Shown piece after piece: positions 7,640 through 25,225 of a stretch of 25,225 bases of DNA. The position numbers and the translations under genes are program-made. This stretch comes from Calditrichaceae bacterium (GTDB lineage Bacteria > Calditrichota > Calditrichia > Calditrichales > JBFXGD01), in contig JBFXGD010000037.1 of the NCBI GenBank assembly GCA_050178385.1, positions 1-25,225 of the forward strand, given 5' to 3'. The first letter of the stretch is position 1, and every line of letters begins with the position of its first letter. The notes under the pieces are model-generated. The model ran no database searches, was not told the origin of the DNA, and saw only the letters and a program-made list of their open reading frames with translations.

Positions 7640-8512
7640 TTGAAACCGGGGATAACGTTGTCAGAACGTCCGATTTTTAAAATTGCCTACCAGGGTGAAA
7701 AAGGCGCGTATAGCGATAATGCCATAGATAGTCTTTTCGGGGACAGAGCTGTCGAAAAATTTCCTTTCCGGACTTCTTATGATGTAATCGACGCGATAAA
7801 AAACAACACGGTTGACTTTGGGCTTCTTCCGATAGATAATTCAATCATAGGTAATATAACACATACTTATGATCTGCTTCTTGAGCACAAACTTTATATT
7901 GTAAATGAGACCATCATCCCGATTCATCACGCTTTTCTGGCGGTTGATCAAATCCCGGAAGATGAAATTAAAAAGATTTATTCTCATCCCGCAGCTATCT
8001 CACAGTGTGAAGTCTTTCTGCGCAGTTTTGACAAGGCTGAAATTATCCCGACATATGACACTGCTGGAAGCGCGAAAATGATTGCGGAAAATAGATTGTA
8101 TGATACAGCCGCGATTGCCAGTGAAAAATCAGCGGATTTGTACAGTTTAACAATTCTGCGGAGAAATATCGAAGATTTTAAGCATAATCAAACCCGGTTC
8201 GTGCTGGTGTCAGTCAATCCAGGAAATGAAGATCGGGAAAAAGAGACCCTGTATAAAACATCCATCGTATTCAGCACCCCGGATAAACCGGGGATGCTGG
8301 TTAGATGTCTCGGAATATTTGAAAAATATAACATAAATATGTCGCTGTTGACTTCCCGTCCGCATAAATCAAAATTGTGGAATTATCATTTTTTTGTTGA
8401 TATTGATGGCCATGTGATGGATGAAAACGTGTCAATAGCCTTCGATGAAATTCGCCGGATCACGGGTTCTATTCATATAATGGGATCATATACCAGATTT
8501 ATTGGGAAATGA
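7640..8512 (+). CDS. pheA: Prephenate dehydratase with C-terminal ACT domain (monofunctional)
   Basis: IAYQGEKGAYS, YSHPAAISQC, DTAGSA, catalytic NQTRF, ACT domain KTSIVF...PGMLV...SRP...YHFFVD. The TTG start is uncertain by a few codons. Confidence 0.93.
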   Translation: MKPGITLSERPIFKIAYQGEKGAYSDNAIDSLFGDRAVEKFPFRTSYDVIDAIKNNTVDFGLLPIDNSIIGNITHTYDLLLEHKLYIVNETIIPIHHAFLAVDQIPEDEIKKIYSHPAAISQCEVFLRSFDKAEIIPTYDTAGSAKMIAENRLYDTAAIASEKSADLYSLTILRRNIEDFKHNQTRFVLVSVNPGNEDREKETLYKTSIVFSTPDKPGMLVRCLGIFEKYNINMSLLTSRPHKSKLWNYHFFVDIDGHVMDENVSIAFDEIRRITGSIHIMGSYTRFIGK

Positions 8513-8514
8513 AT

Positions 8515-8548
8515 AAAAAAAGCCCCGGAAGTATAACTTTCGGGGCTT
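8515..8548. terminator. Intrinsic terminator hairpin between convergent pheA and the parvulin gene, probably bidirectional
   Basis: AAGCCCCGGAAG-TATAA-CTTTCGGGGCTT (8520-8548), a 12-bp stem with one G:U on the + strand. The A-run at 8515-8521 gives a U-tract on the minus strand. Confidence 0.85.
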
Positions 8549-8565
8549 ATAATAATCTCAGCTTT

Positions 8566-10371
8566 TTAGAATATATTGAATAATTTTCTATTGTCTTCTA
8601 TATCGGCTTTACTCTTTAAATCTTCATACCAATCGTAGAACGCCTTATTCTTCTTTTCAACAAGAAGTTGATTTTTGATTTGTTTTTTCTGACTATTGAA
8701 AGCTACGCTGTCAAATTCAGTTTTTTCGAGAAGCTTTTCGTAGAAAAATCCACGGGGGGACTCAACTAATCCCGATGTTTCTCCAACATTTAACGTAAAT
8801 GCTGTCGCCGCGAACTCAATATTTTTACCGATTCCCGGGATGTTTTGTTTCATATCAAACATGGATGTTTCGCTGTATGTGACTTTTTTATCAGTATCTT
8901 CATCAGCGATTTGTTCGAACGGCATACCGGATTTTACTTTATCACTTAATTTGATTGCATAATCTTTGGCGCGTTCTGTGGATTTCTCATATTTTATGCG
9001 GTTTTCGATTAATCTTTTTACGGATTCCAGATCTTTAAATCCGGCTTTCTTGATTACGTCAACCTTCACAACGGCATATGAGTGCTCAAGGAAATAAGCA
9101 TCAGAAACCGCGTCAGCATCTGATGTAAATATAAATCCCATGAGGGATGGGTTGCGGCCGATTCCTGGTATAAATCCGCTGCGCTCTTCAAAAGGACCTG
9201 ATTTTAAAACTTCATAGTCTAAATTTTTAGCGGCAGACTCAAAACCCAGATCTTTTGCGTCTTCAGAGAAAAATCGCGCCTTATTTTCCTGTTCCTCTAT
9301 AGTGGACGGCCCGGCGGTTATTTTAAGAAGTATATGGCTTGCTTTGACCTTTTCTACGCCATCTTCAGTTTTTTTATCCTCAACATAAATCAGATGCAGA
9401 CCGTAAGGAGATTTTACAGGCCCGACAACATCGCCAACATTAGCTCCGAAGGCCGCGTCAGAAAACTGTTTAACCATAGCATTCCGATCAAAATAACCAA
9501 GATCGCCATTGTTGCTTTTTACGGAAGGATCCTCAGAATATTCTTTTGCTAAATTGGAAAATTTCTCACCGTTTGCCAGCCGTTCCCGGATAACATCAAA
9601 GTCAGAATAAATTCTGGAAGTATCCTTTTCGGTCGGCCTGATGGAGAAGAGTATATATGAGACATCACGCATTTCATTTTGTTTGTACTCTTCTTTATGC
9701 AGATCGTAATAATTCTTAATTTCCTGATCACTCAGCGTGATATCATCTGTCTGAAATTTATTTGGTAAAATACTAAGATATTCTACTTTTGCCTTCAGGC
9801 TGGATTTTTTAAATTCATTGTGTACTTCATCATCCGTAACGCGGACGGTACTGGTAATTGTACTCTGCAGTTTGACTATTGGAATCTGCTGGCGGTACAC
9901 ATCTTCGATCTGCCCCCATGGAATGCTTGGATCAGAAAAAGCGGTCTGATATTTTTTCATGTCAAACACACCATCTGTCTGAAAAGCAGGGTGGCGTCTG
10001 AAATCTTCCAGAGGACTGTTATATATGTAGTAAACAACTTCGGAATCTGTAACCGCGATACCCAATTTATCCATCTCTTCACTGAACAGAGTCATCTGAA
10101 CAAATTGTTCCCAAACCTGGTTTCTTAATCTTTCCAGAGCAGTATCGTCCAATTCTTTACCGGTCCTTGCGCGCTCATTTTGAAAAGCCTGTTGATACAT
10201 TTCATTAAACTGTTCAAAGGTGAGTTTTTCGCCGTTTACGGAGCCAACGGTATTGTCGCGGGTAGAACGCCCGCTGTAGTCGGCACCCCATTCAAATACC
10301 ATCAATCCCAGAAAAGAAAAGACCAGAATCCACAAAAACACTCCACTCAGCTGACGCAATTTCGTCATCAT
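8566..10371 (-). CDS. ppiD: Membrane-anchored periplasmic chaperone / parvulin-type peptidyl-prolyl isomerase (PpiD/SurA-like)
   Basis: N-terminal TM helix (FLWILVFSFLGLMVFEWG), SurA-N-like region, rotamase motif FSNLAKEYSEDPS...GDLGYF...F..AAF...GPVKSPYGLHLI. AGGAG RBS upstream on the minus strand. Confidence 0.85.
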   Translation of the reverse strand: MMTKLRQLSGVFLWILVFSFLGLMVFEWGADYSGRSTRDNTVGSVNGEKLTFEQFNEMYQQAFQNERARTGKELDDTALERLRNQVWEQFVQMTLFSEEMDKLGIAVTDSEVVYYIYNSPLEDFRRHPAFQTDGVFDMKKYQTAFSDPSIPWGQIEDVYRQQIPIVKLQSTITSTVRVTDDEVHNEFKKSSLKAKVEYLSILPNKFQTDDITLSDQEIKNYYDLHKEEYKQNEMRDVSYILFSIRPTEKDTSRIYSDFDVIRERLANGEKFSNLAKEYSEDPSVKSNNGDLGYFDRNAMVKQFSDAAFGANVGDVVGPVKSPYGLHLIYVEDKKTEDGVEKVKASHILLKITAGPSTIEEQENKARFFSEDAKDLGFESAAKNLDYEVLKSGPFEERSGFIPGIGRNPSLMGFIFTSDADAVSDAYFLEHSYAVVKVDVIKKAGFKDLESVKRLIENRIKYEKSTERAKDYAIKLSDKVKSGMPFEQIADEDTDKKVTYSETSMFDMKQNIPGIGKNIEFAATAFTLNVGETSGLVESPRGFFYEKLLEKTEFDSVAFNSQKKQIKNQLLVEKKNKAFYDWYEDLKSKADIEDNRKLFNIF

Positions 10372-10437
10372 AAGGCATGTATCTCCTTTTGTTTCATAAT
10401 CATCATCACAACAATTTAAATCATTATCTCTGTATTG

Positions 10438-10446
10438 TGATATAAT
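10438..10446 (+). promoter_or_regulatory. Candidate extended -10 promoter for the lipid A/LPS operon
   Basis: Perfect TGnTATAAT (TGATATAAT) in the divergent intergenic region, about 135 nt upstream of the ATG at 10580. No clear -35. Confidence 0.35.
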
Positions 10447-10579
10447 CGGGCTTTCAAAAACTCATAAATTTACAGGTTGAACTACCTAATATCAACTTTA
10501 AATGGATGAATCTTGGAATTATTTTATAACTTTATGTTCTATTGGTTGATTCAAAAATGTTAATTCGCTAACTTTAATT

Positions 10580-11494
10580 ATGCATAAAACAGAATACTAT
10601 ATCGTTAAATTTTTATTTTGGCTTTTGAATAAGATATCTTTTAAAGGAGGCAAAAGAGCCGCATTTTTTTTGTATATTATTGTCGCGAAAATATTTCGCT
10701 ACAGAAGAAAAGTTATTTTGGAAAATTTACATCTGGTTTATGGAGATAATTTGCCTGATGATGAACGTGAACTTTTAAAAAATATTTACAAAAATTTTGT
10801 TTATCTCTGGATGGAATTTATTCAAATGAGGCAGCTTACGGTCCAAAACGCCAATGAACACCTCCGTTTTCATGATAAGGATATTCTGGATAATGCTCTT
10901 AAAAAAGGAAACGGTGTGATTTTGATTTCCGGGCATTTTGGGAATTTTGAATGGGAAGGCGGAGTACTCGCTATGCTTGGCAACCCGATCGCCGGTATAG
11001 CGAAGAAACAAAGCAATCCATACGTTGACAAATTAATTTTTGAAAACCGCACTAAACTGGGCAGCAGAGTCATATATAAAAAAGATGGTATAAAAGACGG
11101 ATTGAAAACTCTTAAGAACAATGAAATCTTATGTTTAGTAGCCGATCAGGATGCCAGAAAGTCAGGAATCTTTGTAAATTTTTTAGGCCAGCCCTCATCC
11201 ACTGCGGTCGGACCGGCTATATTTAAGATAAGAAGTAACGCAACAATGATCTTTACAATTTCCGTACGCAGAGATTATGGAGTGTTTGATGTCTTTTTCG
11301 AAGAACTTCCGGATTCCGCATCCGAAGATGTCAATACTATCACTCAGCTGCATTCCGATTTGCTGGAAAAATGGATAAGGCTTTATCCGGAACAATGGTT
11401 CTGGGTACATAAAAGATGGAAAACCAAACCGCCGGCAGAAGATCAATCGGCGAAGAATACAATTGATAAAGCAAACTCTGAGGGCGCTGCGTAA
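10580..11494 (+). CDS. lpxL: Lipid A biosynthesis late acyltransferase (LpxL/HtrB family)
   Basis: HX4E catalytic motif SGHFGNFE, ADQDA, FVNFLG, C-terminal YPEQWFWVHKRWKT. LPS gene context. Confidence 0.85.
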   Translation: MHKTEYYIVKFLFWLLNKISFKGGKRAAFFLYIIVAKIFRYRRKVILENLHLVYGDNLPDDERELLKNIYKNFVYLWMEFIQMRQLTVQNANEHLRFHDKDILDNALKKGNGVILISGHFGNFEWEGGVLAMLGNPIAGIAKKQSNPYVDKLIFENRTKLGSRVIYKKDGIKDGLKTLKNNEILCLVADQDARKSGIFVNFLGQPSSTAVGPAIFKIRSNATMIFTISVRRDYGVFDVFFEELPDSASEDVNTITQLHSDLLEKWIRLYPEQWFWVHKRWKTKPPAEDQSAKNTIDKANSEGAA

Positions 11495-11508
11495 AAGGAT
11501 TTGCATTA

Positions 11509-12684
11509 ATGGAATATTTTAAGATCAATCCGGAAAAGCCCGATAAAAAAGCGATTGAAAAAGCAATCGAAGTGCTGGGAAATGGTGGTATTATCGCATA
11601 TCCGACGGACACGCTCTACGGGCTTGGTATCGATGTCACCAACGATAAAGCAGTACATAAATTATATTTGCTGAAACAGAGAGACCTAAAACTGCCGGTG
11701 TCTTTAATGGTAAACTCTCTGGATAAAATGGAAGAATTAGTCGGAATCCTGCCCATTGAGTTATACAGTCATCTGAATAAAATACTCCCGGGTAAAGTTA
11801 CCGCCCTGATTAAGAATGCCGAACAGGTCACTCTGCCGATTTTTGAATATCTTGAAAAAAACAAAAACTTACCCGAAAAAATCGGTTTCCGAATTCCTGA
11901 TCATCCTGTCTGCCATGCATTGACAACCGGATTTGAAAATCCTGTTTCGACAACAAGCGCAAACATTTCGGGAAAAGGTAATGTTTTTTCAATTAAAGAT
12001 GTGATTGCTCAATTTGGGAATAAACTGGATCTCATTCTTGACGCGGGCGAGCTTGAACATTCGGAAGGTTCGACCATTGTTGATTTTACAAAAGATCCGT
12101 ATCTGATTGTAAGGCAGGGGGATCTTTCCGCCAGCCAACTGGAAAAAATACTGCCGGATCTGACCTGGAGAAAAAAACGGGATATATTTACCATCACCTT
12201 TGTTTGTTCGGGAAATATCTGCCGCTCACCAATGGCTGAAGGGATATTAAAACATATTCTCAGCAGAACAAAGTATAAAAAATGGATCAGGGTCCGTTCC
12301 GCCGGGACACTCATGATTCCGGTATCGGATGCTCATGAATTTGCCATAGATGTAATGAAAGAAAAAAATATCGAGATAGCAAAACATCGTTCATCGGTTA
12401 TTAATTCAGCAATAATGGCGGAATCGGATTTGGTGATTGCAATGGCCTATAATCACTATAAATATCTACGGGAGAATTTTCCGGGTCATAAAGAAAAGGT
12501 AGTTCTGATAAAGCAGTGGCATCGCGAAAACCGCTTAACTAATCCGTCAATCGCAGATCCGATCGGGCATGACATAGAATTTTTTAATATCACTTACACA
12601 GAAATATATCGGGAAATCAAAAGGATACTTCCGCATATATTAAAACAAATTGAAGTGTTTGCAGATTACAACAATCTTGTTTAA
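11509..12684 (+). CDS. tsaC: Fusion: L-threonylcarbamoyladenylate synthase (TsaC/YrdC domain) + low-molecular-weight protein phosphatase (LMW-PTP)
   Basis: aa ~1-215 carry YPTDTLYGL, LKQR, GFRIPDH, STTSANISG, STIVD. aa ~225-391 carry the P-loop FVCSGNICRSPMAEG, VRSAGT and IADPIG. One uninterrupted frame. Confidence 0.9.
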   Translation: MEYFKINPEKPDKKAIEKAIEVLGNGGIIAYPTDTLYGLGIDVTNDKAVHKLYLLKQRDLKLPVSLMVNSLDKMEELVGILPIELYSHLNKILPGKVTALIKNAEQVTLPIFEYLEKNKNLPEKIGFRIPDHPVCHALTTGFENPVSTTSANISGKGNVFSIKDVIAQFGNKLDLILDAGELEHSEGSTIVDFTKDPYLIVRQGDLSASQLEKILPDLTWRKKRDIFTITFVCSGNICRSPMAEGILKHILSRTKYKKWIRVRSAGTLMIPVSDAHEFAIDVMKEKNIEIAKHRSSVINSAIMAESDLVIAMAYNHYKYLRENFPGHKEKVVLIKQWHRENRLTNPSIADPIGHDIEFFNITYTEIYREIKRILPHILKQIEVFADYNNLV

Positions 12685-12839
12685 TTCGTCGCTATCGACT
12701 CGTATCGATGTGAATATTTGGACCAAATCCAAATGATAAAATGGTTAAGCGTTTTTTAATTGAGCACATGGCCATGATATAAAAAATTGGAACAAGAACA
12801 AAATAGATAAAATAAGTGGTTTTGCTTTTGCCAAAAATG
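12549..12839 (+). repeat. Degenerate direct repeat, left copy (~291 bp): intact 3' end of the tsaC-phosphatase gene, spacer, decayed GT2 5' end
   Basis: Collinear anchors shared with 14916-15206: AATCGCAGATCCGATC (16/16), CGGGAAAT, CTTGTTTAA (stop), GAATATTTGGA, and ATTGG...AAATG (49/55). Confidence 0.9.
12786..12839 (+). pseudogene. Relic of the 5' end (leader plus ~11 codons) of the GT2 gene at 15173
   Basis: Aligns to 15152-15206 with 5 mismatches and one gap. The gap is the G of the ATG. Reads KISGFAFAKN versus the intact MKISGFSFVRN. Confidence 0.85.
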
Positions 12840-12884
12840 TAAGACGATTGATGGCTAATAAAAATCTCACAAACCAGTTTAGCG

Positions 12885-12902
12885 CCTCCGGATCGCCGGA
12901 GG
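12885..12902. other. GC-rich hairpin in the leader of the inserted GT4 gene
   Basis: CCTCCGG-ATCG-CCGGAGG, a perfect 7-bp stem with a 4-nt loop and no U-tract. Confidence 0.55.
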
Positions 12903-12932
12903 AGACGCAGTAAATGATCGAGAGAAGATTAA

Positions 12933-13904
12933 ATGACTAAAAAGGTATTACTGCTGCCGGATCACCCAAACTGGGCTCTTGATAAAAATGCGCGTGATCT
13001 GGTAAAATACAACCGCTCTTCTCTGAAATTGGATATTTGCTATTTTGAAGATTTCATTAAGGACGCGTCGCGATATTATTCTGAATACGATCTGCTGTTC
13101 CCGATGTACAAAGGCAGCTTTTTTAGTATGCTGGATAAAAAAATCCCAACGGATAAAGTAATCACCGGAATTCGCTCTTATCATCGTTGGGATAAAAAAC
13201 AGACCCAACCGCCGGGCTATAACGCAAAACCGCCCCAGGATATTATTCGTCGTTTACGAAAAGCCTTACTGGTAAACACCAATAGTAAAAAATTATGGTA
13301 TATTTTTTCACAGCATCTTCGGGTAATCCATACAAAATATACTTGCGATCTGGAGTTGTTTTATCCGGATAAAATAAAAAAGAACCATAATAAATTAGTT
13401 GTTGGCTGGACTGGCAGCCTTACGAATCATCCGGGAAAGCGTGGCTTCTATGAATTTATCAAACCGGCTTGTGAATCAATTCCGGAAATTGAGCTGAAGG
13501 TGCAGAGTAAAGAGGATAATTTTATTACGGATGATAACCTGATGCGTGATTTTTATAATTCAGTGGATTTATATATAACAGCATCGCGAAGCGAGAGCGG
13601 CCCCAGGCCGGTGATCGAAGCCGCCGCCTGCGGGACACCGGTCCTGTCAACGGATGTCGGTATTGTACCGGAATTGATCGAGGAAGGTGTTAATGGCTTT
13701 GTTGTTGATCGCAACATTAATGCGTTTATATCAAAGTTATCGTGGATTGTGCAAAACCGGGAGATTTTGCCAATTATGGGTAATAAAATGAGAAAAAAGA
13801 TGGAGCAGGAATTTAACTGGGAACATCTGATTTTTCAATGGACGGATTTTATGAATTATGCCCTTGAGTTAAACCGCTTAAAAAAAGAAGGATATATTAA
13901 GTGA
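12933..13904 (+). CDS. Glycosyltransferase family 4 (GT-B)
   Basis: C-terminal Glycos_transf_1 signature YITASRSESGPRPVIEAAACGTPVLSTDVG...ELIEEGVNGF (EX7E), plus VGWTGS. Confidence 0.9.
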   Translation: MTKKVLLLPDHPNWALDKNARDLVKYNRSSLKLDICYFEDFIKDASRYYSEYDLLFPMYKGSFFSMLDKKIPTDKVITGIRSYHRWDKKQTQPPGYNAKPPQDIIRRLRKALLVNTNSKKLWYIFSQHLRVIHTKYTCDLELFYPDKIKKNHNKLVVGWTGSLTNHPGKRGFYEFIKPACESIPEIELKVQSKEDNFITDDNLMRDFYNSVDLYITASRSESGPRPVIEAAACGTPVLSTDVGIVPELIEEGVNGFVVDRNINAFISKLSWIVQNREILPIMGNKMRKKMEQEFNWEHLIFQWTDFMNYALELNRLKKEGYIK

Positions 13905-14833
13905 AAACGGTGGTGATTGTTAAAGACCGTAATAATTTTGGCCCGCTTTTTTATAAATATTCTGAGGAACACGGATTTAAAGCAAAGCTCATTGATATCT
14001 GGAAAAAAGATTCGCTTGATTATCTATTAGAAGAGCCAATAGATGCCTTCGTGTGGTGGGCGAAACATAATCCGGAGATTAAGAATTTTGCCCGGAGACT
14101 GATATATTTATTTAATAATGAAATAAATATTCCGACTTTCCCTGATTGGCAGTCATATTGGCATTATGATGATAAAATAAGCCAGTCATTGCTGTTCCGT
14201 AAATATGATATTCCCGGTGCGGATACTTTTATATTTTTCAATAAGGATGAAGCAGTTGAATTTGCTAAAAATACACATTATCCGATTATTTATAAGTGTG
14301 CTCACGGAGCCGGAAGCGCCAATGTGGGAATTCTGAAAAATCAGACAAGCGCTTTGAATTATATCAGGAAGGCTTTTGGGAAAGGGCTCAAAACATATTT
14401 TAAAGACGAGATTCAAAAAGGTTACGTTTACTTTCAGGAATACCTGGAGGATAACAAAGGTGACTACCGGCTGGTTTGTTTTGGTGATGATAAAATTCAG
14501 GGCGTTTTTCGTAATAATCGAAAAGGTAGTGTATTTGCAAGCGGCAGCGGCCAATTTGATTTTCCGGACTTACCCGAGGATATGTTGAATCTTGTGGCCG
14601 ATACCAACAAGAAACTTGGATTTGGAGTTATGTCATACGACATCTTAAAAAAAAGGGATCAGTGGGTAATTACTGAGATTAGTGTTATTTTTGGTGAGGC
14701 CGTTAACACGATTTATGATAGGATACCGGTATACAATAAAAAAAATGGGATCTGGTACAAGGAAAATATGTATGAGAATCTTTCACAAAGACTGTTTAAC
14801 TATTTATTAAAATATCGATGGAAATGGATTTGA
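13901..14833 (+). CDS. RimK-like ATP-grasp ligase (polysaccharide-locus type)
   Basis: DDKISQ, YPIIYK..HGAGSANV, YFQEYL, DYRLV, ASGSG, SYDIL, TEIS match ATP-grasp positions. GTG start overlaps the GT4 stop (GTGA). Confidence 0.8.
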   Translation: MKTVVIVKDRNNFGPLFYKYSEEHGFKAKLIDIWKKDSLDYLLEEPIDAFVWWAKHNPEIKNFARRLIYLFNNEINIPTFPDWQSYWHYDDKISQSLLFRKYDIPGADTFIFFNKDEAVEFAKNTHYPIIYKCAHGAGSANVGILKNQTSALNYIRKAFGKGLKTYFKDEIQKGYVYFQEYLEDNKGDYRLVCFGDDKIQGVFRNNRKGSVFASGSGQFDFPDLPEDMLNLVADTNKKLGFGVMSYDILKKRDQWVITEISVIFGEAVNTIYDRIPVYNKKNGIWYKENMYENLSQRLFNYLLKYRWKWI

Positions 14834-14866
14834 ATCAATAATTTCCGTCACCATGTGTGGCTAAGC

Positions 14867-14901
14867 CGGATTTTGCAATCTTACCGGCAGTGCGAAATCC
14901 G
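14867..14901. other. Stem-loop downstream of the ATP-grasp gene at the right cassette junction
   Basis: CGGATTTTGCA-(13 nt)-TGCGAAATCCG, an 11-bp stem with one U:G. No U-tract on the + strand. Confidence 0.5.
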
Positions 14902-14915
14902 CGAAAATATTTGAT

Positions 14916-15034
14916 AATCGCAGATCCGATCCGGTTTGAATTAGAACTTTTTATTCACCCAGGCAAATGTACCGGGAAATTTCACATATTGAAAGAAATT
15001 GGAGCGATCGCAATTATATAATACCCTTGTTTAA
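14916..15034 (+). pseudogene. Relic of the last ~45 codons of the tsaC-phosphatase gene
   Basis: Translated blocks IADPIRFELELFI / HILKEIGAIA / YNTLV* versus intact IADPIGHDIEFFN / HILKQIEVFA / YNNLV*. Broken by small indels and a deletion of roughly 15 nt. Confidence 0.88.
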
Positions 15035-15206
15035 GGAACTTCTTTAGGCCTTTAGCGACGCGAATATTTGGAAATAAATCCATAAATTTATATATTTAAC
15101 TTTTTTTGAATATATCCCGAGGGGCTAACAATAACGGGATTGTTATTAAACATTGGAAAAAGAGCAAAATAGATGAAAATAAGTGGTTTTTCTTTTGTCA
15201 GAAATG
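14916..15206 (+). repeat. Degenerate direct repeat, right copy (~291 bp): decayed phosphatase 3' end, spacer, intact GT2 5' end
   Basis: Collinear with 12549-12839 at an offset of 2350-2367 nt. Confidence 0.9.
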
Positions 15207-16120
15207 GCGCGAAACTTTATTATCCGGTTGTTGAATCCATTAAATCAATTCTGCCCGTCTGCGATGAATTTGTAATAGCGGTCGGACAGGGCGACGAGGA
15301 TGATAAGACCAGAGATCAGATTGCGGCAATTGGTGATCCGAAGGTCAAAATTATAGACACCGTCTGGGAAGAAAAATATTTCAAAAAGGGTGTTGTTAAT
15401 GCCATGCAGACTGATATTGCTCAGCAGGCATGCTCAGGTGACTGGCTTTTTTACCTTCAGGCGGATGAGGTTGTACACGAAAAATACCTTCCGGTAATCC
15501 GGAAACGATGCGAAGAATTGTCGGATGTCCCTGAAGTGGAGGGTCTTCTGTTCAGATATAAACATTTCTGGGGTGATTACAACCATTTCCACGGCGGTCA
15601 TGGATGGTATCCGAATGAAATCAGAATAATACGAAATCTTCCGGATGTCCATTCCTGGCAGAGCGCGCAATCATTCCGTCATTTTAACCCTTATGAGAAT
15701 CCGAGACAGGAGACCGGCACGTCAAAACTCAGTGTTGCCCGTGTGGACGCTGAAATCTATCACTACGGCTGGGTAAGACCGCCGCATTTAATGCAGAACA
15801 AAAGAAAAGCTCTCGATTCAGTTCACTGGGGAAGTAATAAAGCGGAAGAATATTACGATAAGGCGCCGAAATATTTTGATTATGGGCCTCTTGATCGTCT
15901 GGAGTATTTTAAGGGGACGCATCCGGCGGTAATGAAGGAACGTATCGCCATGCTCGACTGGCAGGAGAAGTTGCAGTTATCGGGAAAGCCAAACACATAC
16001 AGACTGCCGCATAAGCATGAACTTCTGAAAACCCGTACGATCTCTTTTATAGAAAAAAATATTTTACGCGGTAAACAATTGGGCGGATTCAGGAATTATA
16101 TATTATTGGATCAATTTTGA
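15173..16120 (+). CDS. Glycosyltransferase family 2 (MKISGFSFVRNG type)
   Basis: GT-A fold pattern ESIKSILPVCDEFVIAVG, WLFYLQADE, HFWGDY, IYHYGWVRPP, HPAVM. Confidence 0.85.
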   Translation: MKISGFSFVRNGAKLYYPVVESIKSILPVCDEFVIAVGQGDEDDKTRDQIAAIGDPKVKIIDTVWEEKYFKKGVVNAMQTDIAQQACSGDWLFYLQADEVVHEKYLPVIRKRCEELSDVPEVEGLLFRYKHFWGDYNHFHGGHGWYPNEIRIIRNLPDVHSWQSAQSFRHFNPYENPRQETGTSKLSVARVDAEIYHYGWVRPPHLMQNKRKALDSVHWGSNKAEEYYDKAPKYFDYGPLDRLEYFKGTHPAVMKERIAMLDWQEKLQLSGKPNTYRLPHKHELLKTRTISFIEKNILRGKQLGGFRNYILLDQF

Positions 16121-16145
16121 GAGTGACCGGTAAGGAAATTTCCTG

Positions 16146-17375
16146 ATGCAGTTAAAATATTACGAACGTCTGATTAAAAAATGGTTTCGTCTACCTTTGT
16201 TTCTTGTTTATTTTTTATCTTTCCTTTCCCGGCGGGATAAAAATATCTGGGTTTTCGGAACATATAACAGCGCTTTCAATGATAATACAAAATATATGTA
16301 TTTGTTCCTCGAAAAAAATTTCCCGGCTATCACTCCGGTATGGCTTTCAAAAAGCTCTAAGAGCGCGGAAAAATTCAGAAAATTAGGGGTTACTGCATAT
16401 TACCGGTACAGCCTGAAAGGTATAAAATACCTGTTGACCGGTAAGTTTTATCTCTGCAATACAAATCTTGGAGATCTCAATTTCTGGCTTTCCGGAGGCG
16501 CGGTTTATATAAATTTCTGGCATGGCGTTCCCTTAAAAAAAATTGAATTTGATATCACAAAAGGAAGCCTCACCTGGAAATATCAATCATCCACCAAGTT
16601 AATGAAATGGATAAAAGCTGTCAGTTTTCCGGAACTTTATCGCAAACCGGATCACTTGCTGGTACCATCGACCGAATTGCTGCCGGTATTTAAAAGGGCA
16701 TTCCGTATAAATAATTCAAACGCGATGTACGGACCGTATCCAAGAAATTCGATTTTCAATTATAACAGGATGCAGCTCAGGGAAATTATCAGTAAGTATG
16801 AGGGTAAATCAGCGCTTTCCTTTCTTGATCGTCTTGAGTCATTTGAAAAAGTTGTTTTCTACCTGCCGACATTCAGGGACGGAAACAATGATTTTCTGCA
16901 GGATTCAGGTATCGATATTGAGAAACTGAATGACACGCTTAAAAAACATAATTATTGTCTTATTGTTAAATTTCATAGTAATACGAAGTTGCCGGCGGAT
17001 CTTTTCAGCCGCTTGACGCATATACTTCAACTGAACAATCAGATGGACATTTATCCGCTGTTACCGTTCACCGACGCTCTTTTGACAGACTATTCATCCA
17101 TTTATGTGGATTACCTTCTGCTGGATAAGGAAATCATTTTTTTCCCGTTTGATATAAAAGAATATATGCAGAGAAGCCGCGAATTTTACTATGATTTTGA
17201 TGAAATCACACCGGGAGTTAAATGTTACGATTTCAAATCACTGCTGACACAAATAGAGAATTTGAATGATCTGGATTTCAGGAAGCAAAGGGAAGAAATA
17301 AGAAGCAGGATCTGGAAAACCAACCGGATTGAAGACCTGACAGCTTTGACTGAAGATCTGATTAAAAATCATTAA
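16146..17375 (+). CDS. CDP-glycerol glycerophosphotransferase family protein (TagB/TagF-like)
   Basis: FNDNTKY, WHGVPLKK, YPRN, YLPTFRD, KFH, LLTDYSSIYVDYLLLDK. Confidence 0.88.
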   Translation: MQLKYYERLIKKWFRLPLFLVYFLSFLSRRDKNIWVFGTYNSAFNDNTKYMYLFLEKNFPAITPVWLSKSSKSAEKFRKLGVTAYYRYSLKGIKYLLTGKFYLCNTNLGDLNFWLSGGAVYINFWHGVPLKKIEFDITKGSLTWKYQSSTKLMKWIKAVSFPELYRKPDHLLVPSTELLPVFKRAFRINNSNAMYGPYPRNSIFNYNRMQLREIISKYEGKSALSFLDRLESFEKVVFYLPTFRDGNNDFLQDSGIDIEKLNDTLKKHNYCLIVKFHSNTKLPADLFSRLTHILQLNNQMDIYPLLPFTDALLTDYSSIYVDYLLLDKEIIFFPFDIKEYMQRSREFYYDFDEITPGVKCYDFKSLLTQIENLNDLDFRKQREEIRSRIWKTNRIEDLTALTEDLIKNH

Positions 17376-17420
17376 AATTTTTTGTGGAATTGTACCTGGA
17401 ACAAGGAAAATTATATTTTT

Positions 17421-18290
17421 ATGATAACTAATGATACATCCGGGAAGGTGACGCTGATTATCACGGTTTATAACAGATCCCACTTTCTCCGAAGCGCTCT
17501 GTTGGCTTTACGGAGTCAATCATTTAAAATTGATGAGTTGATCGTATCGGATGACGGTTCAAGTGAAGATATTATTTCGGTGATCAGGGAATCATTGTCC
17601 GGTCTGGATTGCGCTGTAAAGTTTGTGCGTCAGGATGACAATGGATTTCGCCTGGCTAAATGCAGAAATAACGCGATAAGGGAGGCGGAAGGCGATCAGC
17701 TGATTTTTATTGATCAGGATATTGTTTATACCAAAAACTACCTGAAAACGTTTACTGAATATCGGGAAAAGGGCGTTTTTTTAGTCGCGTATCCGGTGCG
17801 CCTCAGGGAAGATCAGACAAACCAGCTTACGGAAGATATGATTGCGACGGCGGATTATTCATCCCTGATCAGTCCTGAGCAAAGAAAAAAGATCCATAAA
17901 CAGTATTATTCGGATTTATTTGAGTATTTTTTGAAAAAAACGCTTAGAACAAAAGGTCATAAACCAAAACTGCGGGGCGGAGTTTTTGCGATCAGAAAAG
18001 AAGATATTTTGAAGGTTGATGGATTTGATGAGAATTATCAGGGGTGGGGTAATGAAGATGACGATCTGGGGAGACGTTTATACAAAGCGGGTATAATTGG
18101 AAAGAATGTCTTCTACGATGAATACCCGATACATCTTTATCATCCGGCGTTTCATGTTAACGGTAAGCGGGTTAATCAGGATTATTACCAGACCCGTATC
18201 AAAGAAATCCGTGACGGGAAATACCGCGCGGTTCACGGAGTTTCCAATCCGCTGGGGGATGATAAAATTGAAGTAATACGACTAAGATAG
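17421..18290 (+). CDS. Glycosyltransferase family 2 with galactosyltransferase-like C-terminus
   Basis: IITVYNR, SDDGS, GFRLAKCRN, FIDQD, GFDENYQGWGNEDDDLGRRL, HLYH. ATG at 17421 (AAGGA upstream) preferred over the TTG at 17382. Confidence 0.9.
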   Translation: MITNDTSGKVTLIITVYNRSHFLRSALLALRSQSFKIDELIVSDDGSSEDIISVIRESLSGLDCAVKFVRQDDNGFRLAKCRNNAIREAEGDQLIFIDQDIVYTKNYLKTFTEYREKGVFLVAYPVRLREDQTNQLTEDMIATADYSSLISPEQRKKIHKQYYSDLFEYFLKKTLRTKGHKPKLRGGVFAIRKEDILKVDGFDENYQGWGNEDDDLGRRLYKAGIIGKNVFYDEYPIHLYHPAFHVNGKRVNQDYYQTRIKEIRDGKYRAVHGVSNPLGDDKIEVIRLR

Positions 18291-18294
18291 GCAA

Positions 18295-19038
18295 ATGGAA
18301 AAACTCTCAATTGTTATAATTACAAAAAATGAAGAATCGAATATTGGCCGCTGTCTTAAATCTGTCCGATGGGCAGATGAAATAGTGGTCATCGACTCTG
18401 GATCCACCGACAGGACACTGGAAATTTGCCGTGACTATTCCTGTGTGATCACTTCTTCCGAATGGCTTGGATTCGGCCGGACAAAACAACTCGCTGCGGC
18501 AACGGCCTCCAACCACTGGCTGTTTTCAATCGACGCCGATGAGGAAATGACGACGGAGCTTGCCAATAAAATCCGTGAGATACTATCAGGCAATGTTCAG
18601 AAGAATGGATACAGAATCAGAAGGATGTCATTTTATCTTGGAAAACTTATCAGGCATTCGGGATGGAATCGTGATTATCCCTTGCGTCTTTTTAACAGAA
18701 AACACGGCACTTTTAATGAAAAAGATGTTCATGAGTCAGTGGAAATTGATGGAGATATCGGAAATTTGAATGAACCATTGCTTCATTATACTTATCCGAC
18801 CATTTCATCACATCTGATCAAAATGGATCGGTATACTTCTATTGGGGCGGATGTGTTGTATCAAAAAGGCAAAAAAGTAACGATTGCAGGGGCGATAATC
18901 AGAGGAATTGTAAAATTTATAAAAATGTATATCATTCAGGGTGGTATCATGGATGGTCGGGAAGGATTTGTTCTTGCGCTTAACTCGGCTTATGGCGTTT
19001 ATCTGAAATATCTCAAATTATGGAAGCTAAATCACTGA
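18295..19038 (+). CDS. Glycosyltransferase family 2, LPS core beta-1,4-glucosyltransferase-like (WaaE/KdtX/LgtF type)
   Basis: IITKNEE, IDSGSTDRT, WLGFG, SIDADE, VHESV, LLHYTY, DGREG. Confidence 0.9.
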   Translation: MEKLSIVIITKNEESNIGRCLKSVRWADEIVVIDSGSTDRTLEICRDYSCVITSSEWLGFGRTKQLAAATASNHWLFSIDADEEMTTELANKIREILSGNVQKNGYRIRRMSFYLGKLIRHSGWNRDYPLRLFNRKHGTFNEKDVHESVEIDGDIGNLNEPLLHYTYPTISSHLIKMDRYTSIGADVLYQKGKKVTIAGAIIRGIVKFIKMYIIQGGIMDGREGFVLALNSAYGVYLKYLKLWKLNH

Positions 19039-20138
19039 AAATATTACATATTGATACGGAAAAAGAGTGGCGCGGAGGGCAGCAGCAGGCTGTTTATCTG
19101 CACCGGTCGCTTATTGAACAAGGGTATTCATCGGATCTTGCATGTCAGCCCGGTTCACGCTACGAATCGTATTGTATCGAAAATCAATTGCCCTGTTTAG
19201 CCGTCAATATGCGCGGTGAATATGACTTTATCGCGGGATGGAAGATTGCAGGATATTGTCGAAAAAATCGCGTTCATATCATTCACGCGCATTCGGCGCA
19301 CGCGCTGGCAATCGGTTTGTGGGCAAAAATGTTTTATTCGGATATAAAACTGATCGCTGCGAGAAGAGTGGATTTCAGTATCCGGAAGAATATGTTCAGT
19401 GTCCTGAAATATAAAAACAGTTTTCTGGATAAAATAGTATGCGTTTCCGATAATATAAAATCGGTTCTTGTTGCTGATGGATTGCCGGAGCATAAAATTA
19501 CTACTGTTCATAGCGGGATTGACCTGAATAAATTTGACAGTGTTCAGGTTCCGGACGGATTTCTTCAGGATTGGAAAATTCCGAAGGGGAATGTAATCAT
19601 CGGAACAGTCGCTGCCATTGTGGGGCATAAGGACTATCCCACATTATTAAAAGCGGCGCGTATCGTTACGAATGAGCATCCAAAAGCGACATTTATCGCG
19701 CTTGGAGGCGGAACTGATGAAGAAAAGGTTAAAGCGCAGGCAGATGAACTGGGACTTGGCGGGAAATTTATATTCGCGGGATTTCAAAAAGATGTGGGAC
19801 TCTTCCTTAAAAGTTTTGATATATTCGTTTTAGCGTCAAAACTGGAAGGGCTGGGAACATCTATTCTTGACGCGCAATCAGTTGGATTGCCGGTCATTGC
19901 CACAAAAACAGGAGGTATTCCCGAGGCGGTGCAGGACGGAGTAAACGGAATGCTTGTTCCTCCGCAAAATCCTGTTAAACTCGCGGAAGCCATTTTAAAT
20001 TTAATTAACGATGATGAAAAACGGATGGCTTTAGGGCGCCGAGCGCTAGCCACCGTCGAAAATTTTGATATCAGAAAAACGGTTGAAAAAACAATCAGGG
20101 TTTACGAGAGCCTTTTTGAAAAACAACCGGTAAGCTGA
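19020..20138 (+). CDS. Glycosyltransferase family 4
   Basis: HIDTEKEWRGGQQQ, HAHSAHA, HKDY, SKLEGLGTSILDA..GLPVIATKTGGIPE. Overlaps the upstream GT2 by 19 nt. Confidence 0.92.
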   Translation: MEAKSLKILHIDTEKEWRGGQQQAVYLHRSLIEQGYSSDLACQPGSRYESYCIENQLPCLAVNMRGEYDFIAGWKIAGYCRKNRVHIIHAHSAHALAIGLWAKMFYSDIKLIAARRVDFSIRKNMFSVLKYKNSFLDKIVCVSDNIKSVLVADGLPEHKITTVHSGIDLNKFDSVQVPDGFLQDWKIPKGNVIIGTVAAIVGHKDYPTLLKAARIVTNEHPKATFIALGGGTDEEKVKAQADELGLGGKFIFAGFQKDVGLFLKSFDIFVLASKLEGLGTSILDAQSVGLPVIATKTGGIPEAVQDGVNGMLVPPQNPVKLAEAILNLINDDEKRMALGRRALATVENFDIRKTVEKTIRVYESLFEKQPVS

Positions 20139-20164
20139 TTTTATGATGAGAGTATTACAAAACG

Positions 20165-21184
20165 ATGAAACCAAATAAAATTTTAATTATACAAACAGCA
20201 TACCTTGGCGATGTTATTCTGATTACACCTTTAATCAGGGCGGTAAAGGAACTTTTTCCCGAAGCCGTGATCGACGCGATGGTTATTCCGCAGACAAAAG
20301 GTGTACTTGATAATAATCCCTATCTCAGAAATGTTATCACATTTGATAAACGGAACAATAAATTGACCGCCTTCTGGCGTACCGTCAAGCATATACGGAA
20401 GAATGAGTACGATCTGGCCATATCGCCTCACAGCTCCATAACTACCGCTTATCTCATGAAATTGGGCGGTATAGAAGATCGGTTGGGATTTGACCGCTGG
20501 CAGGCGGCAAAACATCTGACAAAGAAAGTGCCTCATCTTAATAATATTCACAAGATCAAAAGAATATTGCACTTGTTGACGGTTTTTACGGATCGTGAAT
20601 TTGATATGCAGAGCGAATTGTTTCCGGATGAAGCGATGAAGAAGGCGGCCGGAAAAATATTTTCCGATTTACCCTTTCCCGGCCGGCCGGTTATTGCAAT
20701 CGCTCCCGGATCGGTTTGGTTTACAAAAAGATGGCCGGAAGAATATTACAGCCGTTTGGCGGGAATGCTGCATAATGAAAAATTCAATCTGATTTTCATC
20801 GGCGCGGGAAATGAATATGAACTAAACGAAAAAATCATCAAGGATTCAAAATCTGCCGCAGTTAATCTAACCGGGAAAACTAATATACTGGAATCCGCGG
20901 CTATAATAGAGAGCTGTGATCTGATGATTTGCAATGACAGCGGGCCTCTTCATATTGCCAACGCGATGCAGACAGATGTCTTCGCGTTTTTTGGCCCCAC
21001 GGTTCGTTCAATAGGATATTTTCCATTCAGGGAAAATGATATTGTCTTTGAAATTGATCTCGATTGCCGGCCATGCAGCAGTCACGGCGGAAGCGCGTGC
21101 CCGCTAAAACATCACAATTGTATGAAACAGATCACGCCGGAACTGGTATTGTCACGAGTCAGGCAAAAATTCGGGGATGTTTAA
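20165..21184 (+). CDS. waaF: Glycosyltransferase family 9, LPS heptosyltransferase (WaaF-like)
   Basis: QTAYLGDVIL, APGSVWFTKRWP, NDSGPLHIA, FGPT and the C-terminal Cys cluster CRPCSSHGGSACPLKHHNCM. Exact heptose position is inferred. Confidence 0.82.
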   Translation: MKPNKILIIQTAYLGDVILITPLIRAVKELFPEAVIDAMVIPQTKGVLDNNPYLRNVITFDKRNNKLTAFWRTVKHIRKNEYDLAISPHSSITTAYLMKLGGIEDRLGFDRWQAAKHLTKKVPHLNNIHKIKRILHLLTVFTDREFDMQSELFPDEAMKKAAGKIFSDLPFPGRPVIAIAPGSVWFTKRWPEEYYSRLAGMLHNEKFNLIFIGAGNEYELNEKIIKDSKSAAVNLTGKTNILESAAIIESCDLMICNDSGPLHIANAMQTDVFAFFGPTVRSIGYFPFRENDIVFEIDLDCRPCSSHGGSACPLKHHNCMKQITPELVLSRVRQKFGDV

Positions 21185-22233: not shown

Positions 22234-22278
22234 CAATGCTTAATTTTTTTATACAAAAATGAATATTAAAGAGCAGAG

Positions 22279-24213: not shown

Positions 24214-24234
24214 TGATAATATCTTTATCGATCT

Positions 24235-25188: not shown

Positions 25189-25225
25189 TTGGTAATCTCC
25201 ATGATAAAATTGAAATAATAAAATG

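What the first reader, a model, noticed from the sequence alone, without database searches (positions are those of the whole stretch)
12549..15206. Two-gene LPS cassette bracketed by a ~291-bp reciprocally decayed duplication of its own integration site
Seen: the gap 14834-15172, which has no ORF, contains a broken copy of the 3' end of the tsaC-phosphatase gene (exact 16-mer AATCGCAGATCCGATC at 12549 and 14916; IADPI, HILK.I and YN.LV* blocks). The gap 12685-12932 contains a broken copy of the start of the GT2 gene at 15173 (49/55 identity, G of the ATG deleted). The spacer anchors (GAATATTTGGA...AAATCCA) are also collinear. The segment [phosphatase end - spacer - GT2 start] therefore occurs twice, about 2.36 kb apart, and in each copy the half facing the cargo is dead while the half needed by the flanking gene is intact. 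Many substitutions are at codon positions 1 and 2, consistent with neutral decay. No integrase, transposase or tRNA is in the window, and ~290 bp is far longer than an IS target-site duplication. Inference: the GT4 + ATP-grasp pair was added by single-crossover (Campbell-type) integration, or by tandem duplication followed by replacement, at the tsaC-PTP/GT2 junction. This may be a recombination-driven swap site for LPS variation that could originally have excised again.
Basis: partly seen in the sequence, partly recalled or inferred. Interest (0 to 1): 0.8.

Follow-up and report, generated by a model that had tools for sequence, protein, structure and literature searches.

The report
Old duplication scar in LPS-core locus
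Two glycan-synthesis genes are bracketed by a decayed 320-base repeat that records an ancient reshuffling of a widely conserved gene block, not a mobile cassette.

Summary
Window 12518-12839 (L) and 14886-15206 (R) are direct copies: 224 of 340 alignment columns identical, local score 84 against at most 31 in shuffles. L keeps the intact tsaC-PTP 3' end and a dead GT2x start. R keeps a dead PTP end and the live spacer and GT2x start. Two same-genus genomes have the predicted empty junction, PTP-spacer-GT2x.

The interpretation needs revising. GT4 + ATP-grasp is not foreign cargo. In 10 of 17 loci from several phyla the block runs GT2x-GT4-ATP-grasp-GT2b. Here GT2x sits behind the pair, and the GT2x stub lies where GT2x normally sits. 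The pair's composition and its tree distances match its flanks.

The dead halves have diverged by 0.22-0.28 substitutions per site. That is about one lineage's share of the neutral divergence between the two species. The longest exact match between copies is 16 nt. No mobility gene or tRNA is present.

Best reading (0.55): a segment [PTP 3' end + spacer + GT2x] was duplicated behind the ATP-grasp gene, and complementary losses followed. Main rival (0.30): insertion with long target duplication. Moderate interest.

The parts
11509..12684 (+). Intact gene for a TsaC(Sua5/YrdC)-LMW phosphotyrosine phosphatase fusion. Its last 167 nt are the left part of repeat copy L.
   Evidence: Pfam Sua5_yciO_yrdC 6e-45 and LMWPc 4e-32. 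TIGR00057 172.8 bits, above its cut-off. 85% identical protein in G001.
12518..12839 (+). Repeat copy L. It holds the live PTP 3' end (12518-12684), a spacer copy (12685-12806) whose right part has decayed and lost about 15 nt, and a dead GT2x start (12807-12839, ATG reduced to AT).
   Evidence: Alignments; blocks D1-D3, D8, D10 and D12.
12840..12932 (+). 93-base junction segment unique in the genome, with a hairpin (stem CCTCCGG/CCGGAGG, about 12881-12908, -16.6 kcal/mol). Origin unexplained.
   Evidence: No similarity to the rest of GT2x or to any other place in the genome.
12933..13904 (+). GT4-family glycosyltransferase gene, first gene of the bracketed pair.
   Evidence: Pfam Glycos_transf_1 1e-17. 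70-73% identical orthologues in three other genomes of the order, next to the ATP-grasp gene in the two where both lie on one contig.
13901..14833 (+). RimK/LysX-like ATP-grasp ligase gene, second gene of the pair.
   Evidence: Below-cut-off matches to LysX and RimK models. Weak CPSase_L_D2 match, E 1.2e-4, 22.1 bits against a 19.8-bit cut-off. Nearest homologue among 5.8 billion proteins is 55% identical.
14834..14885 (+). 52-base junction segment between the ATP-grasp stop codon and repeat copy R. Origin unexplained.
   Evidence: No significant similarity to the PTP gene or to the starts of the Glyphos and GT2b genes, and unique in the genome.
14886..15206 (+). Repeat copy R. It holds a dead PTP 3' end (14886-15034, five deletions and one insertion, stop codon kept), the live spacer (15035-15172, right part 87% identical to G001) and the live GT2x start (15173-15206).
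15173..16120 (+). Intact GT2x gene. The protein is highly conserved, glycosyltransferase-2-like, and below the Pfam threshold. Here it lies behind the pair instead of in front of it.
   Evidence: Pfam Glyco_tranf_2_4 23.9 bits against a cut-off of 27.5; no NCBIfam match. 93% identical in G001 and 70-80% across the order. Directly upstream of GT4 in 10 of 17 loci.
16146..17375 (+). Glycerophosphotransferase-type gene (Glyphos). At this place it is found only in this genus. Its junction with GT2x is shared with G001.
   Evidence: Pfam Glyphos_transf 6e-56. Order-wide search. The 170-base stretch over the GT2x-Glyphos junction is 91.8% identical to G001 and the 25-base spacer is identical.

Best explanation
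The 320-base direct repeat is the scar of an old duplication-and-complementary-loss rearrangement inside a conserved LPS-core/glycan gene block. It is not a mobile cassette.

In relatives from several phyla the block runs GT2x-GT4-ATP-grasp-GT2b. In other members of this order tsaC-PTP lies directly upstream of GT2x. I propose three steps.

1. A second copy of the segment [last ~165 nt of tsaC-PTP + spacer + GT2x] came to lie directly behind the ATP-grasp gene. This could be a tandem duplication of PTP-3'...ATP-grasp. It could equally be one recombination between a canonical allele and a PTP-GT2x-Glyphos allele, by single crossover of a circularised fragment or by one homologous and one illegitimate join. 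All routes give the same intermediate with two GT2x copies.
2. The upstream GT2x copy, now redundant, was deleted down to its first 34 nt.
3. The downstream PTP fragment, never functional, decayed.

Because each copy lost what the other keeps, the arrangement is locked. The net result is that GT2x moved from in front of the pair to behind it, taking its own upstream region with it.

The sister species (G001, L047) carry PTP-spacer-GT2x-Glyphos without the pair. Either the duplication collapsed there or they descend from the unrearranged Glyphos allele.

Shown: the repeat, the reciprocal neutral decay, the empty allele, the canonical order, the native character of the pair, and the age. Inferred: the two-GT2x intermediate, the deletion, and the order of events.
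For: 1. The repeat and its decay are real. R-specific changes in the dead PTP end are spread 12/11/10 over codon positions. Differences between the live copies are 3/3/14.
2. Canonical order. Of 17 genome-contig loci holding an orthologue of the ATP-grasp gene, 10 have GT2x directly upstream of GT4-ATP-grasp on the same strand, 13 have GT2b directly downstream, and 0 have GT2x downstream of the pair.
3. The window holds every member of the block exactly once, permuted. The GT2x stub lies 93 bases upstream of GT4, which is GT2x's canonical place.
4. PTP and GT2x are 12-160 bases apart in 12 of the 17 genomes of the order in which both lie on one contig.
5. The pair looks native. Its GC is 0.40 and 0.36 against 0.375-0.44 for its neighbours, and its synonymous codon use is typical of the genome. 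In trees over the same 12 loci the window's nearest rows are the two Calditrichota-titled loci, for the pair (path 0.71 and 0.75) and for the flanking block genes (0.73 and 0.78). No closer donor exists among 5.8 billion proteins; the best ATP-grasp hit is 55%.
6. Age. The dead halves carry 0.28 and 0.22 substitutions per site (Jukes-Cantor). The window and G001 differ by 0.53 at four-fold sites, with dS of 0.49-0.84 in 10 genes. The duplication is therefore roughly 0.7-1 times as old as the species split.
7. No tRNA, no mobility domain in any of the 25 gene-sized ORFs scanned, and no inverted repeats at the ends of the bracketed segment.
8. The model is in print as a hypothesis for bacteria (SNAP, PMC7055797; abstract and discussion read).
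Against: - No remnant of the body or 3' end of the upstream GT2x copy is detectable in 12840-12932. The claim that a whole GT2x once lay there rests on gene order alone.
- A pure tandem duplication also predicts a second GT4-ATP-grasp copy between GT2x and Glyphos. Nothing is left of one. That junction is a 25-base spacer identical in G001. So either a clean deletion predates the species split or the two-allele route must be invoked.
- No relative with two GT2x copies was found among the 39 genomes of the order searched.
- Only 4 of 39 genomes of the order have the pair at all. Vertical descent then needs many losses, and horizontal exchange of the block is a live possibility.
- The three-sequence test of timing is indecisive. 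The dead copy shares 20 states with its own genome's live copy against 14 with G001 (p = 0.39). The PTP end alone gives 13 against 5 (p = 0.10).
- The 52 bases at 14834-14885 are explained by no version of the model.
Confidence: 0.55

Rival explanations
1. Insertion with long target duplication. The genus ancestor had the empty junction PTP-spacer-GT2x-Glyphos. A 2046-base fragment carrying GT4 + ATP-grasp from a related lineage was inserted, and only about 320 bases of target were ever duplicated. The mechanism could be staggered breaks with fill-in, template switching, or a single crossover of a circle carrying that 320-base homology. Each redundant half then decayed.
For: - Both other same-genus genomes have the empty junction, and the single copy there aligns with both L and R.
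- In the PTP end, the dead copy shares more states with the window's own live copy than with G001 (13 against 5). That is what a duplication after the split predicts.
- No trace of a GT2x body lies between the stub and GT4.
- The GT2x-Glyphos junction is shared with G001.
- The same junction holds other genes in G002, G013 and G020.
- Insertions flanked by target duplications from over 30 up to about 420 bases, without mobility genes, are documented for restriction-modification genes (PMC2853133, passages read).
Against: - The duplicated gene start belongs to GT2x, which is the canonical upstream neighbour of GT4 in 10 of 17 loci. For a random insertion point among the dozen junctions of the locus this would be a coincidence.
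- The pair shows no foreign composition.
- The pair has the same tree distances as the flanks.
- No donor closer than 55% identity is known.
- The three other occupied junctions have no repeats, so there is no sign of a recurrent mechanism.
Confidence: 0.3
2. A currently working recombination-driven swap site. The cassette can still excise and reintegrate by recombination between L and R, or through a site-specific recombinase encoded elsewhere, and so gives LPS variation within populations.
For: Direct repeats flank the pair. The junction is variable across the order.
Against: - The copies are 74% identical over ungapped columns, with 37 gap columns, and share at most 16 identical bases in a row. 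From recall, not from a call, homologous recombination needs longer identical runs than that.
- The decay corresponds to about one lineage's share of the divergence between two species.
- No recombinase gene or tRNA is in the window.
- The other occupied junctions carry no repeats.
Confidence: 0.03
3. Artefact: chance similarity, or a chimeric metagenome assembly joining two strains.
For: The window is a contig of a 320-contig metagenome-assembled genome.
Against: - The alignment score is far outside all controls.
- An independently built 3161-base contig of run X1 covers 12018-15178 with 4 differences. X1 may be the source sample.
- A 251-base contig of run X2, from a different study, covers 12696-12947 across the left junction.
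- Pieces of the pair with 0 differences occur in runs X3 and X4, from other studies.
Confidence: 0.01

Closest known systems
[quoted passage not shown]
   Same: A segment is duplicated and complementary genes are lost from the two copies. This traps the arrangement and leaves a permuted gene order. Pseudogenes with matching active copies are the predicted remains.
   Different: The scale here is about 3 kb within one operon-like block, not tens to hundreds of genes. Selection for gene dosage is not shown. The second copy of GT4-ATP-grasp left no remnant. The intermediate may instead have arisen by recombination between two alleles rather than by an intrachromosomal duplication.
Insertion with long target duplication (Furuta, Abe & Kobayashi 2010, PMC2853133, passages read; it cites Nobusato et al. 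2000, which I did not see)
   Same: A gene unit without mobility genes is flanked by direct repeats of tens to about 420 bases, and these align to a single copy in a related genome that lacks the unit.
   Different: Those cases carry restriction-modification genes, their repeats are nearly identical (for example 417/423), and the inserts are often compositionally foreign. Here the genes are glycan-synthesis genes native to the locus, the repeats are old and reciprocally decayed, and the duplicated gene start belongs to the pair's canonical neighbour.
Gene remnants in Salmonella O-antigen gene clusters (Reeves et al. 2013, PMC3715488, passages read)
   Same: Non-functional gene remnants inside polysaccharide loci record earlier arrangements. 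Different lineages keep different stages of degradation by deletion.
   Different: Those remnants (wzy, H-repeat) come from loss of function after replacement elsewhere, or from IS-linked recombination. They are not a paired, reciprocal duplication scar.
Campbell-type (single-crossover) integration, also called insertion-duplication (general knowledge, recalled)
   Same: It yields a direct duplication of the homologous segment on both sides of the inserted DNA. The insert can be lost again by recombination between the copies.
   Different: No replicon, vector or element backbone lies between the repeats. A circle carrying this homology could only come from the same locus, for example a circularised canonical-order fragment.
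Homology-facilitated illegitimate recombination (abstract of PMC3240628 seen in the search listing)
   Same: One end of the incoming DNA is anchored by homology and the other is joined illegitimately. This could join the PTP 3' end of a Glyphos-allele fragment directly behind the ATP-grasp gene.
   Different: It has not been shown for this phylum. It normally replaces recipient DNA rather than leaving a duplication.

Membership tests
Tandem duplication / complementary loss (SNAP, TDRL) | Gene order is permuted relative to the ancestral order in a way that one duplication plus losses can produce | tested here: met
   The canonical order GT2x-GT4-ATP-grasp-GT2b is seen in 10 of 17 loci. The window has GT4-ATP-grasp-GT2x-(Glyphos)-GT2b.
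Tandem duplication / complementary loss (SNAP, TDRL) | Remnants of the lost copies lie at the expected places | tested here: inconclusive
   The GT2x stub is at GT2x's canonical place and a dead PTP 3' end is at the duplication joint. No remnant of the GT2x body or of a second GT4-ATP-grasp copy was found.
Tandem duplication / complementary loss (SNAP, TDRL) | Each duplicated gene is kept in exactly one working copy | tested here: met
   One match each for the ATP-grasp gene, GT4 and GT2x in the window's genome. The PTP gene is intact only at 11509-12684.
Tandem duplication / complementary loss (SNAP, TDRL) | An intermediate with two full copies exists in a relative | tested here: not met
   Not found in the 39 genomes of the order searched or in the one extra same-genus locus, L047, from metagenome contigs. 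The family is represented by only two species.
Insertion with long target duplication | Direct repeats longer than 30 bases flank the insert and align to a single copy in a genome lacking it | tested here: met
Insertion with long target duplication | No mobility genes are present and the insert is under 20 kb | tested here: met
   The bracketed segment is 2046 bases and holds two biosynthetic genes. No tRNA. No mobility domains in the window's ORFs.
Insertion with long target duplication | The insert is a restriction-modification unit (a criterion of the defining survey) or is otherwise foreign to the locus | tested here: not met
   The genes are GT4 + ATP-grasp. They are native to the same block in other phyla. 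Composition and tree distances match the flanks.
Campbell-type integration of a circular element | Element or replicon functions lie between the repeats | tested here: not met
   Only GT4 and the ATP-grasp gene lie between the repeats.
Campbell-type integration of a circular element | Excised circle or restored empty junction in the same population | not testable with these tools
   Only assembled contigs of the runs were available, and they drop rare variants.
IS or transposon insertion | Transposase, terminal inverted repeats and a short target duplication | tested here: not met
   No transposase domain. No inverted repeat with arms at 12840 and 14885. The duplication is about 321 bases long.
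Integrase-mediated genomic island | Tyrosine or serine recombinase, att core repeats, often a tRNA target | tested here: not met
   No tRNA or tmRNA in the window. No recombinase domain.

The most novel reading that the evidence does not exclude
This may be a natural, nearly finished case of gene-order change by duplication and complementary loss in a bacterial operon. It would have both scars still legible and both outcomes of the unstable intermediate preserved in sister species: the window's genome locked the permuted order GT4-ATP-grasp-GT2x, while the G001 lineage collapsed the duplication and so lost GT4-ATP-grasp altogether. The authors of the SNAP hypothesis wrote that no direct empirical evidence existed for such rearrangements in modern bacteria and that pseudogenes with matching active copies would be the trace to look for (PMC7055797, discussion).
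Probability: 0.3. Interest if true: 0.6.

Novelty: new member of a known kind. Interest (0 to 1): 0.4.

Why it matters
The site gives a dated, base-level record of how a deeply conserved glycan-synthesis block changes gene order and gene content without any mobile element. Duplicating a gene together with its upstream region lets both neighbours survive. Complementary decay then fixes the new order.

If the duplication-loss reading is right, this is a small natural example of a process that has been proposed for bacteria mainly on theoretical grounds. It would also explain how a sister species lost two LPS-modifying genes in a single step.

If the insertion reading is right, it extends 'insertion with long target duplication' from restriction-modification genes to cell-surface glycan genes.

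Either way, the two species should differ in LPS-core decoration: GT4 + ATP-grasp ligase present or absent, with the glycerophosphotransferase in both.

Tried and rejected
It was replaced by the Smith-Waterman test.
- Extension of R to the left (14760-14885 against 12300-12517): score 12, reached by 27 of 300 shuffles. Not supported.
- Remnant of the GT2x body or 3' end in 12840-12932: the DNA score of 9 was reached by 281 of 300 shuffles. Protein scores in three frames were reached by 154-475 of 500 shuffles. An end-to-end alignment to the GT2x 3' end gave nothing.
- Remnants of the Glyphos start, the GT2b start or PTP in 14834-14885: not significant at DNA level or protein level.
- Junction segments and the hairpin are not repeated elsewhere in the genome.
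- Remnant of GT2x in the 350-base PTP-GT4 spacer of G030: none.
- Flanking repeats at the other occupied PTP/GT2x junctions: the observed score was reached by 145 of 200 shuffles in G002, 2 of 200 in G013 and 20 of 200 in G020. No convincing repeat.
- The three-sequence timing test was indecisive.
- The promoter and terminator scan found 17 and 4 sites against 14.9 and 4.2 expected, so no evidence either way. A promoter-like site at 15068-15096 in R has no flagged counterpart in L.
- Reads: no contig of runs X1-X4 joins across the bracketed segment, and X2-X4 cover it only in pieces. Contigs cannot show rare variants, so this says nothing about excision.
- The metagenome scan with the PTP protein gave only one useful locus, L047.
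- The search of earlier findings near this place returned nothing.
- I considered and dropped the idea that R derives from a G001-like donor allele. The dead PTP end shares 13 states with the window's own copy against 5 with G001. Also, GT2x-Glyphos-GT2b are no closer to G001 than the left flank is: dS 0.51-0.72 against 0.63-0.79.

Full report
**1. The observation**

A word-7 blastn of 12400-12960 against 14800-15300 gives one collinear alignment, 12518-12839 against 14886-15206. It has 224 identities in 340 columns, 37 of them gaps, and E 3e-32 for that small search space. The Smith-Waterman score is 84. Controls all fall far below this:
- 300 partial dinucleotide-preserving shuffles: mean 17.3, maximum 31.
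- 300 mononucleotide shuffles: maximum 19.
- All other 500-base slices of the window: at most 15.

Within the whole genome, the left copy finds only its partner in this contig. The 16-mer at 12549 and 14916 is the longest exact match between the copies.

**2. Anatomy**

The genes are:

| Coordinates | Gene |
|---|---|
| 10580-11494 | lipid A acyltransferase |
| 11509-12684 | TsaC/LMW-phosphatase fusion (PTP) |
| 12933-13904 | GT4 glycosyltransferase |
| 13901-14833 | RimK/LysX-like ATP-grasp ligase |
| 15173-16120 | GT2x, a highly conserved GT2-like protein |
| 16146-17375 | glycerophosphotransferase (Glyphos) |
| 17382-18290 | GT2b |

Further glycosyltransferases follow, including a GT9 heptosyltransferase type, and then an MsbA-like exporter. 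This is an LPS-core type locus.

Copy L consists of the live last 167 nt of PTP, a spacer, and the first 33 nt of a GT2x start whose ATG lacks the G. Copy R consists of a PTP end with five deletions (19 nt) and one insertion, the spacer, and the live first 34 nt of GT2x.

Between the copies lie 93 unique bases with a strong hairpin, then the two genes, then 52 unique bases.

Changes specific to the dead PTP end are spread 12/11/10 over the three codon positions. The two live PTP ends (window and G001) differ 3/3/14. This is the signature of neutral decay against purifying selection.

**3. The empty allele**

G001, a same-genus genome, aligns to window 8067-12839 (85.3%) and 14985-25225 (86.0%). 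The two alignments overlap by 223 bases in G001. G001 therefore has one copy of PTP end-spacer-GT2x start and lacks 12840-14885.

A third genome, locus L047, is 95.5% identical to G001 and shows the same arrangement. In a three-way alignment, G001 follows L to the left of GAATATTTGG and R to the right of it. G001 has no ATP-grasp or GT4 orthologue anywhere in its genome, which is 97% complete.

**4. Not an artefact**

A 3161-base contig of run X1 covers 12018-15178 with four differences. X1 may be the sample of origin. A 251-base contig of run X2, from a different study, covers 12696-12947 and so bridges the left junction. Pieces of the two genes with no differences occur in X3 and X4.

**5. 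The surroundings change the reading**

PTP and GT2x are neighbours, 12-160 bases apart, in 12 of the 17 genomes of the order where both lie on one contig. Four genomes, the window included, have 1.1-2.5 kb between them. One has another arrangement.

The three other occupied junctions hold a methyltransferase plus a GT4-like gene, a GT2, and a sulfotransferase. None shows repeats.

The bracketed pair is no stranger to the locus. Orthologues (GT4 70-73%, ATP-grasp 48-51%) occur in three other genomes of the order, and where contiguity allows the order there is PTP-GT2x-GT4-ATP-grasp-GT2b, or PTP-GT4-ATP-grasp-GT2b in G030, which lacks GT2x.

A scan of species-representative genomes returned 17 loci with an ATP-grasp orthologue (38-56% identity). 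Their titles name Calditrichota, KSB1, Melioribacteraceae/Ignavibacteria, Cloacimonadota, Bacteroidia and others. Of these:
- 10 have GT2x directly upstream of GT4-ATP-grasp.
- 13 have GT2b directly downstream.
- None has GT2x behind the pair.

Three of the 17 coincide with loci and are not extra cases.

The window therefore holds a permuted version of a deeply conserved block. The dead GT2x start sits exactly where GT2x belongs.

**6. Is the pair foreign?**

It is not, by any test I could run.
- GC is 0.40 and 0.36 for the pair. LpxL has 0.375, Glyphos 0.376 and GT2x 0.44. Synonymous codon use lies in the genome's typical range.
- Trees were built on the same 12 loci. For GT4 + ATP-grasp, the window's nearest rows are the two Calditrichota-titled loci, at path lengths 0.71 and 0.75. 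For GT2x + GT2b + the next two genes, the nearest rows are the same two loci, at 0.73 and 0.78. The pair's tree is poorly resolved; the flank tree groups the three with 95% support.
- The best ATP-grasp hit among 5.8 billion proteins is 55% identical. Any donor is therefore unsampled.

**7. Age**

In the star of L, R and G001, the dead PTP end carries 35 of 148 private changes (Jukes-Cantor 0.28). The dead spacer and GT2x start carry 24 of 128 (0.22).

Ten genes compared between the window and G001 give dS of 0.49-0.84 and a four-fold-site distance of 0.53, which is about 0.27 per lineage. The duplication is therefore roughly as old as the split of these two species.

The test of whether it came before or after the split is indecisive: 20 against 14 shared states overall, and 13 against 5 in the PTP end.

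**8. Mechanism**

Both remnants and the permuted order follow from a single intermediate: PTP-spacer-GT2x-GT4-ATP-grasp-[PTP 3' fragment-spacer-GT2x]-Glyphos-GT2b. Two routes lead to it.
- A tandem duplication from the PTP 3' end to the ATP-grasp stop codon, with later loss of the second GT4-ATP-grasp.
- One recombination between a canonical allele and a PTP-GT2x-Glyphos allele. This could be a single crossover of a circularised canonical fragment, or one homologous plus one illegitimate join. This route needs fewer steps.

Deletion of the redundant upstream GT2x down to 34 nt then leaves today's 320-base repeat. The PTP fragment decays.

G001 either collapsed the 1.25-kb repeat, losing the pair, or descends from the Glyphos allele. 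The GT2x-Glyphos junction is shared by the window and G001, with an identical 25-base spacer, so it predates their split. Glyphos at this place is confined to this genus.

The intermediate itself is inferred. No relative with two GT2x copies and no trace of the deleted GT2x body were found.

**9. The main rival**

The rival is that only 320 bases were ever duplicated, when a 2046-base fragment entered an empty junction. This is the documented class 'insertion with long target duplication' (PMC2853133).

It fits the empty alleles and the 13-against-5 count. It leaves as coincidence that the duplicated gene start is that of the pair's canonical neighbour, and it needs an unsampled donor with native-looking composition. 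I put it at 0.30, against 0.55 for duplication and complementary loss.

An active swap site is unlikely. The longest identical run is 16 bases, the decay is heavy, there is no recombinase, and the other occupied junctions have no repeats.

**10. Comparison with what is known**

Duplication followed by complementary loss is the standard model for mitochondrial gene-order change (search listing only). It has been proposed for bacteria as the SNAP hypothesis. Its authors state that no direct empirical evidence exists in modern bacteria and that pseudogenes with matching active copies would be the trace to look for.

Gene remnants that record earlier states are well known in Salmonella O-antigen clusters.

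I searched the held library for bacterial cases with the terms. Among the 12, 7 and 10 papers those searches listed, no title or abstract start describes a reciprocal scar of this kind in a glycan locus. That is a statement about those three searches only.

**11. Verdict**

The 'added cassette' reading should be replaced, with moderate confidence, by 'old local duplication-loss rearrangement of a conserved block'. This is a new member of known kinds of event and is of moderate interest.

Noticed in passing
window 15173-24213; loci L054, L055, L057, L059, L061, L062, L064, L065, L067, L069: A block GT2x-GT4-ATP-grasp-GT2b-GT2-GT4-GT9, often with an MsbA-like exporter nearby, keeps its order in genomes titled Calditrichota, KSB1, Ignavibacteria/Melioribacteraceae, Cloacimonadota and Bacteroidia. 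Its product is unknown. The tightly coupled GT4 + RimK/LysX-like ligase suggests an amino-acid-decorated sugar in the LPS core.
   Followed up: partly
window 15173-16120: GT2x is 70-80% identical across the order and 64-78% across phyla. Yet it has no NCBIfam match, and its only Pfam match is sub-threshold (Glyco_tranf_2_4, 23.9 bits against a cut-off of 27.5). It is unusually conserved for an uncharacterised glycosyltransferase-like protein.
   Followed up: no
window 11509-12684: The fusion of a TsaC/Sua5-type threonylcarbamoyl-AMP synthase domain with a low-molecular-weight phosphotyrosine phosphatase domain matches full-length or nearly so (query residues 1 to 385 or more) in at least 32 of 41 genomes searched. 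In the loci I mapped where its upstream side is covered, it sits next to the lipid A acyltransferase gene. A separate stand-alone TsaC-like gene also exists (G000:C41).
   Followed up: no
loci L049:2897-4996, L050:1926-2666, L051:2646-3434: The PTP/GT2x junction holds different genes in three other genomes of the order: methyltransferase + GT4-like, GT2, and sulfotransferase. So it is a variable slot of the locus even without repeats.
   Followed up: partly
window 12881-12908: A strong hairpin (CCTCCGG-ATCG-CCGGAGG within a longer stem, -16.6 kcal/mol), unique in the genome, lies 25 bases upstream of the GT4 start and has no T-run after it. Its function is unknown.
   Followed up: partly
window 15110-15140 and the matching part of G001 (L029): The live spacer copy R and G001 share a CCCG...CGGG stem region upstream of GT2x, and the decayed copy L has deleted it. 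It may be a 5'-UTR element of GT2x.
   Followed up: no
locus L068: One Ignavibacteria-titled locus carries two ATP-grasp paralogues (39% and 42% identical to the query), about 5 kb apart, with the exporter gene between them. This is another rearranged version of the block.
   Followed up: no
window 10544-10876, 11402-11651, 16897-17253 in run X3: Run X3 holds contigs about 88-90% identical to the window beside contigs identical to it. A related species therefore co-occurs with this one there.
   Followed up: no
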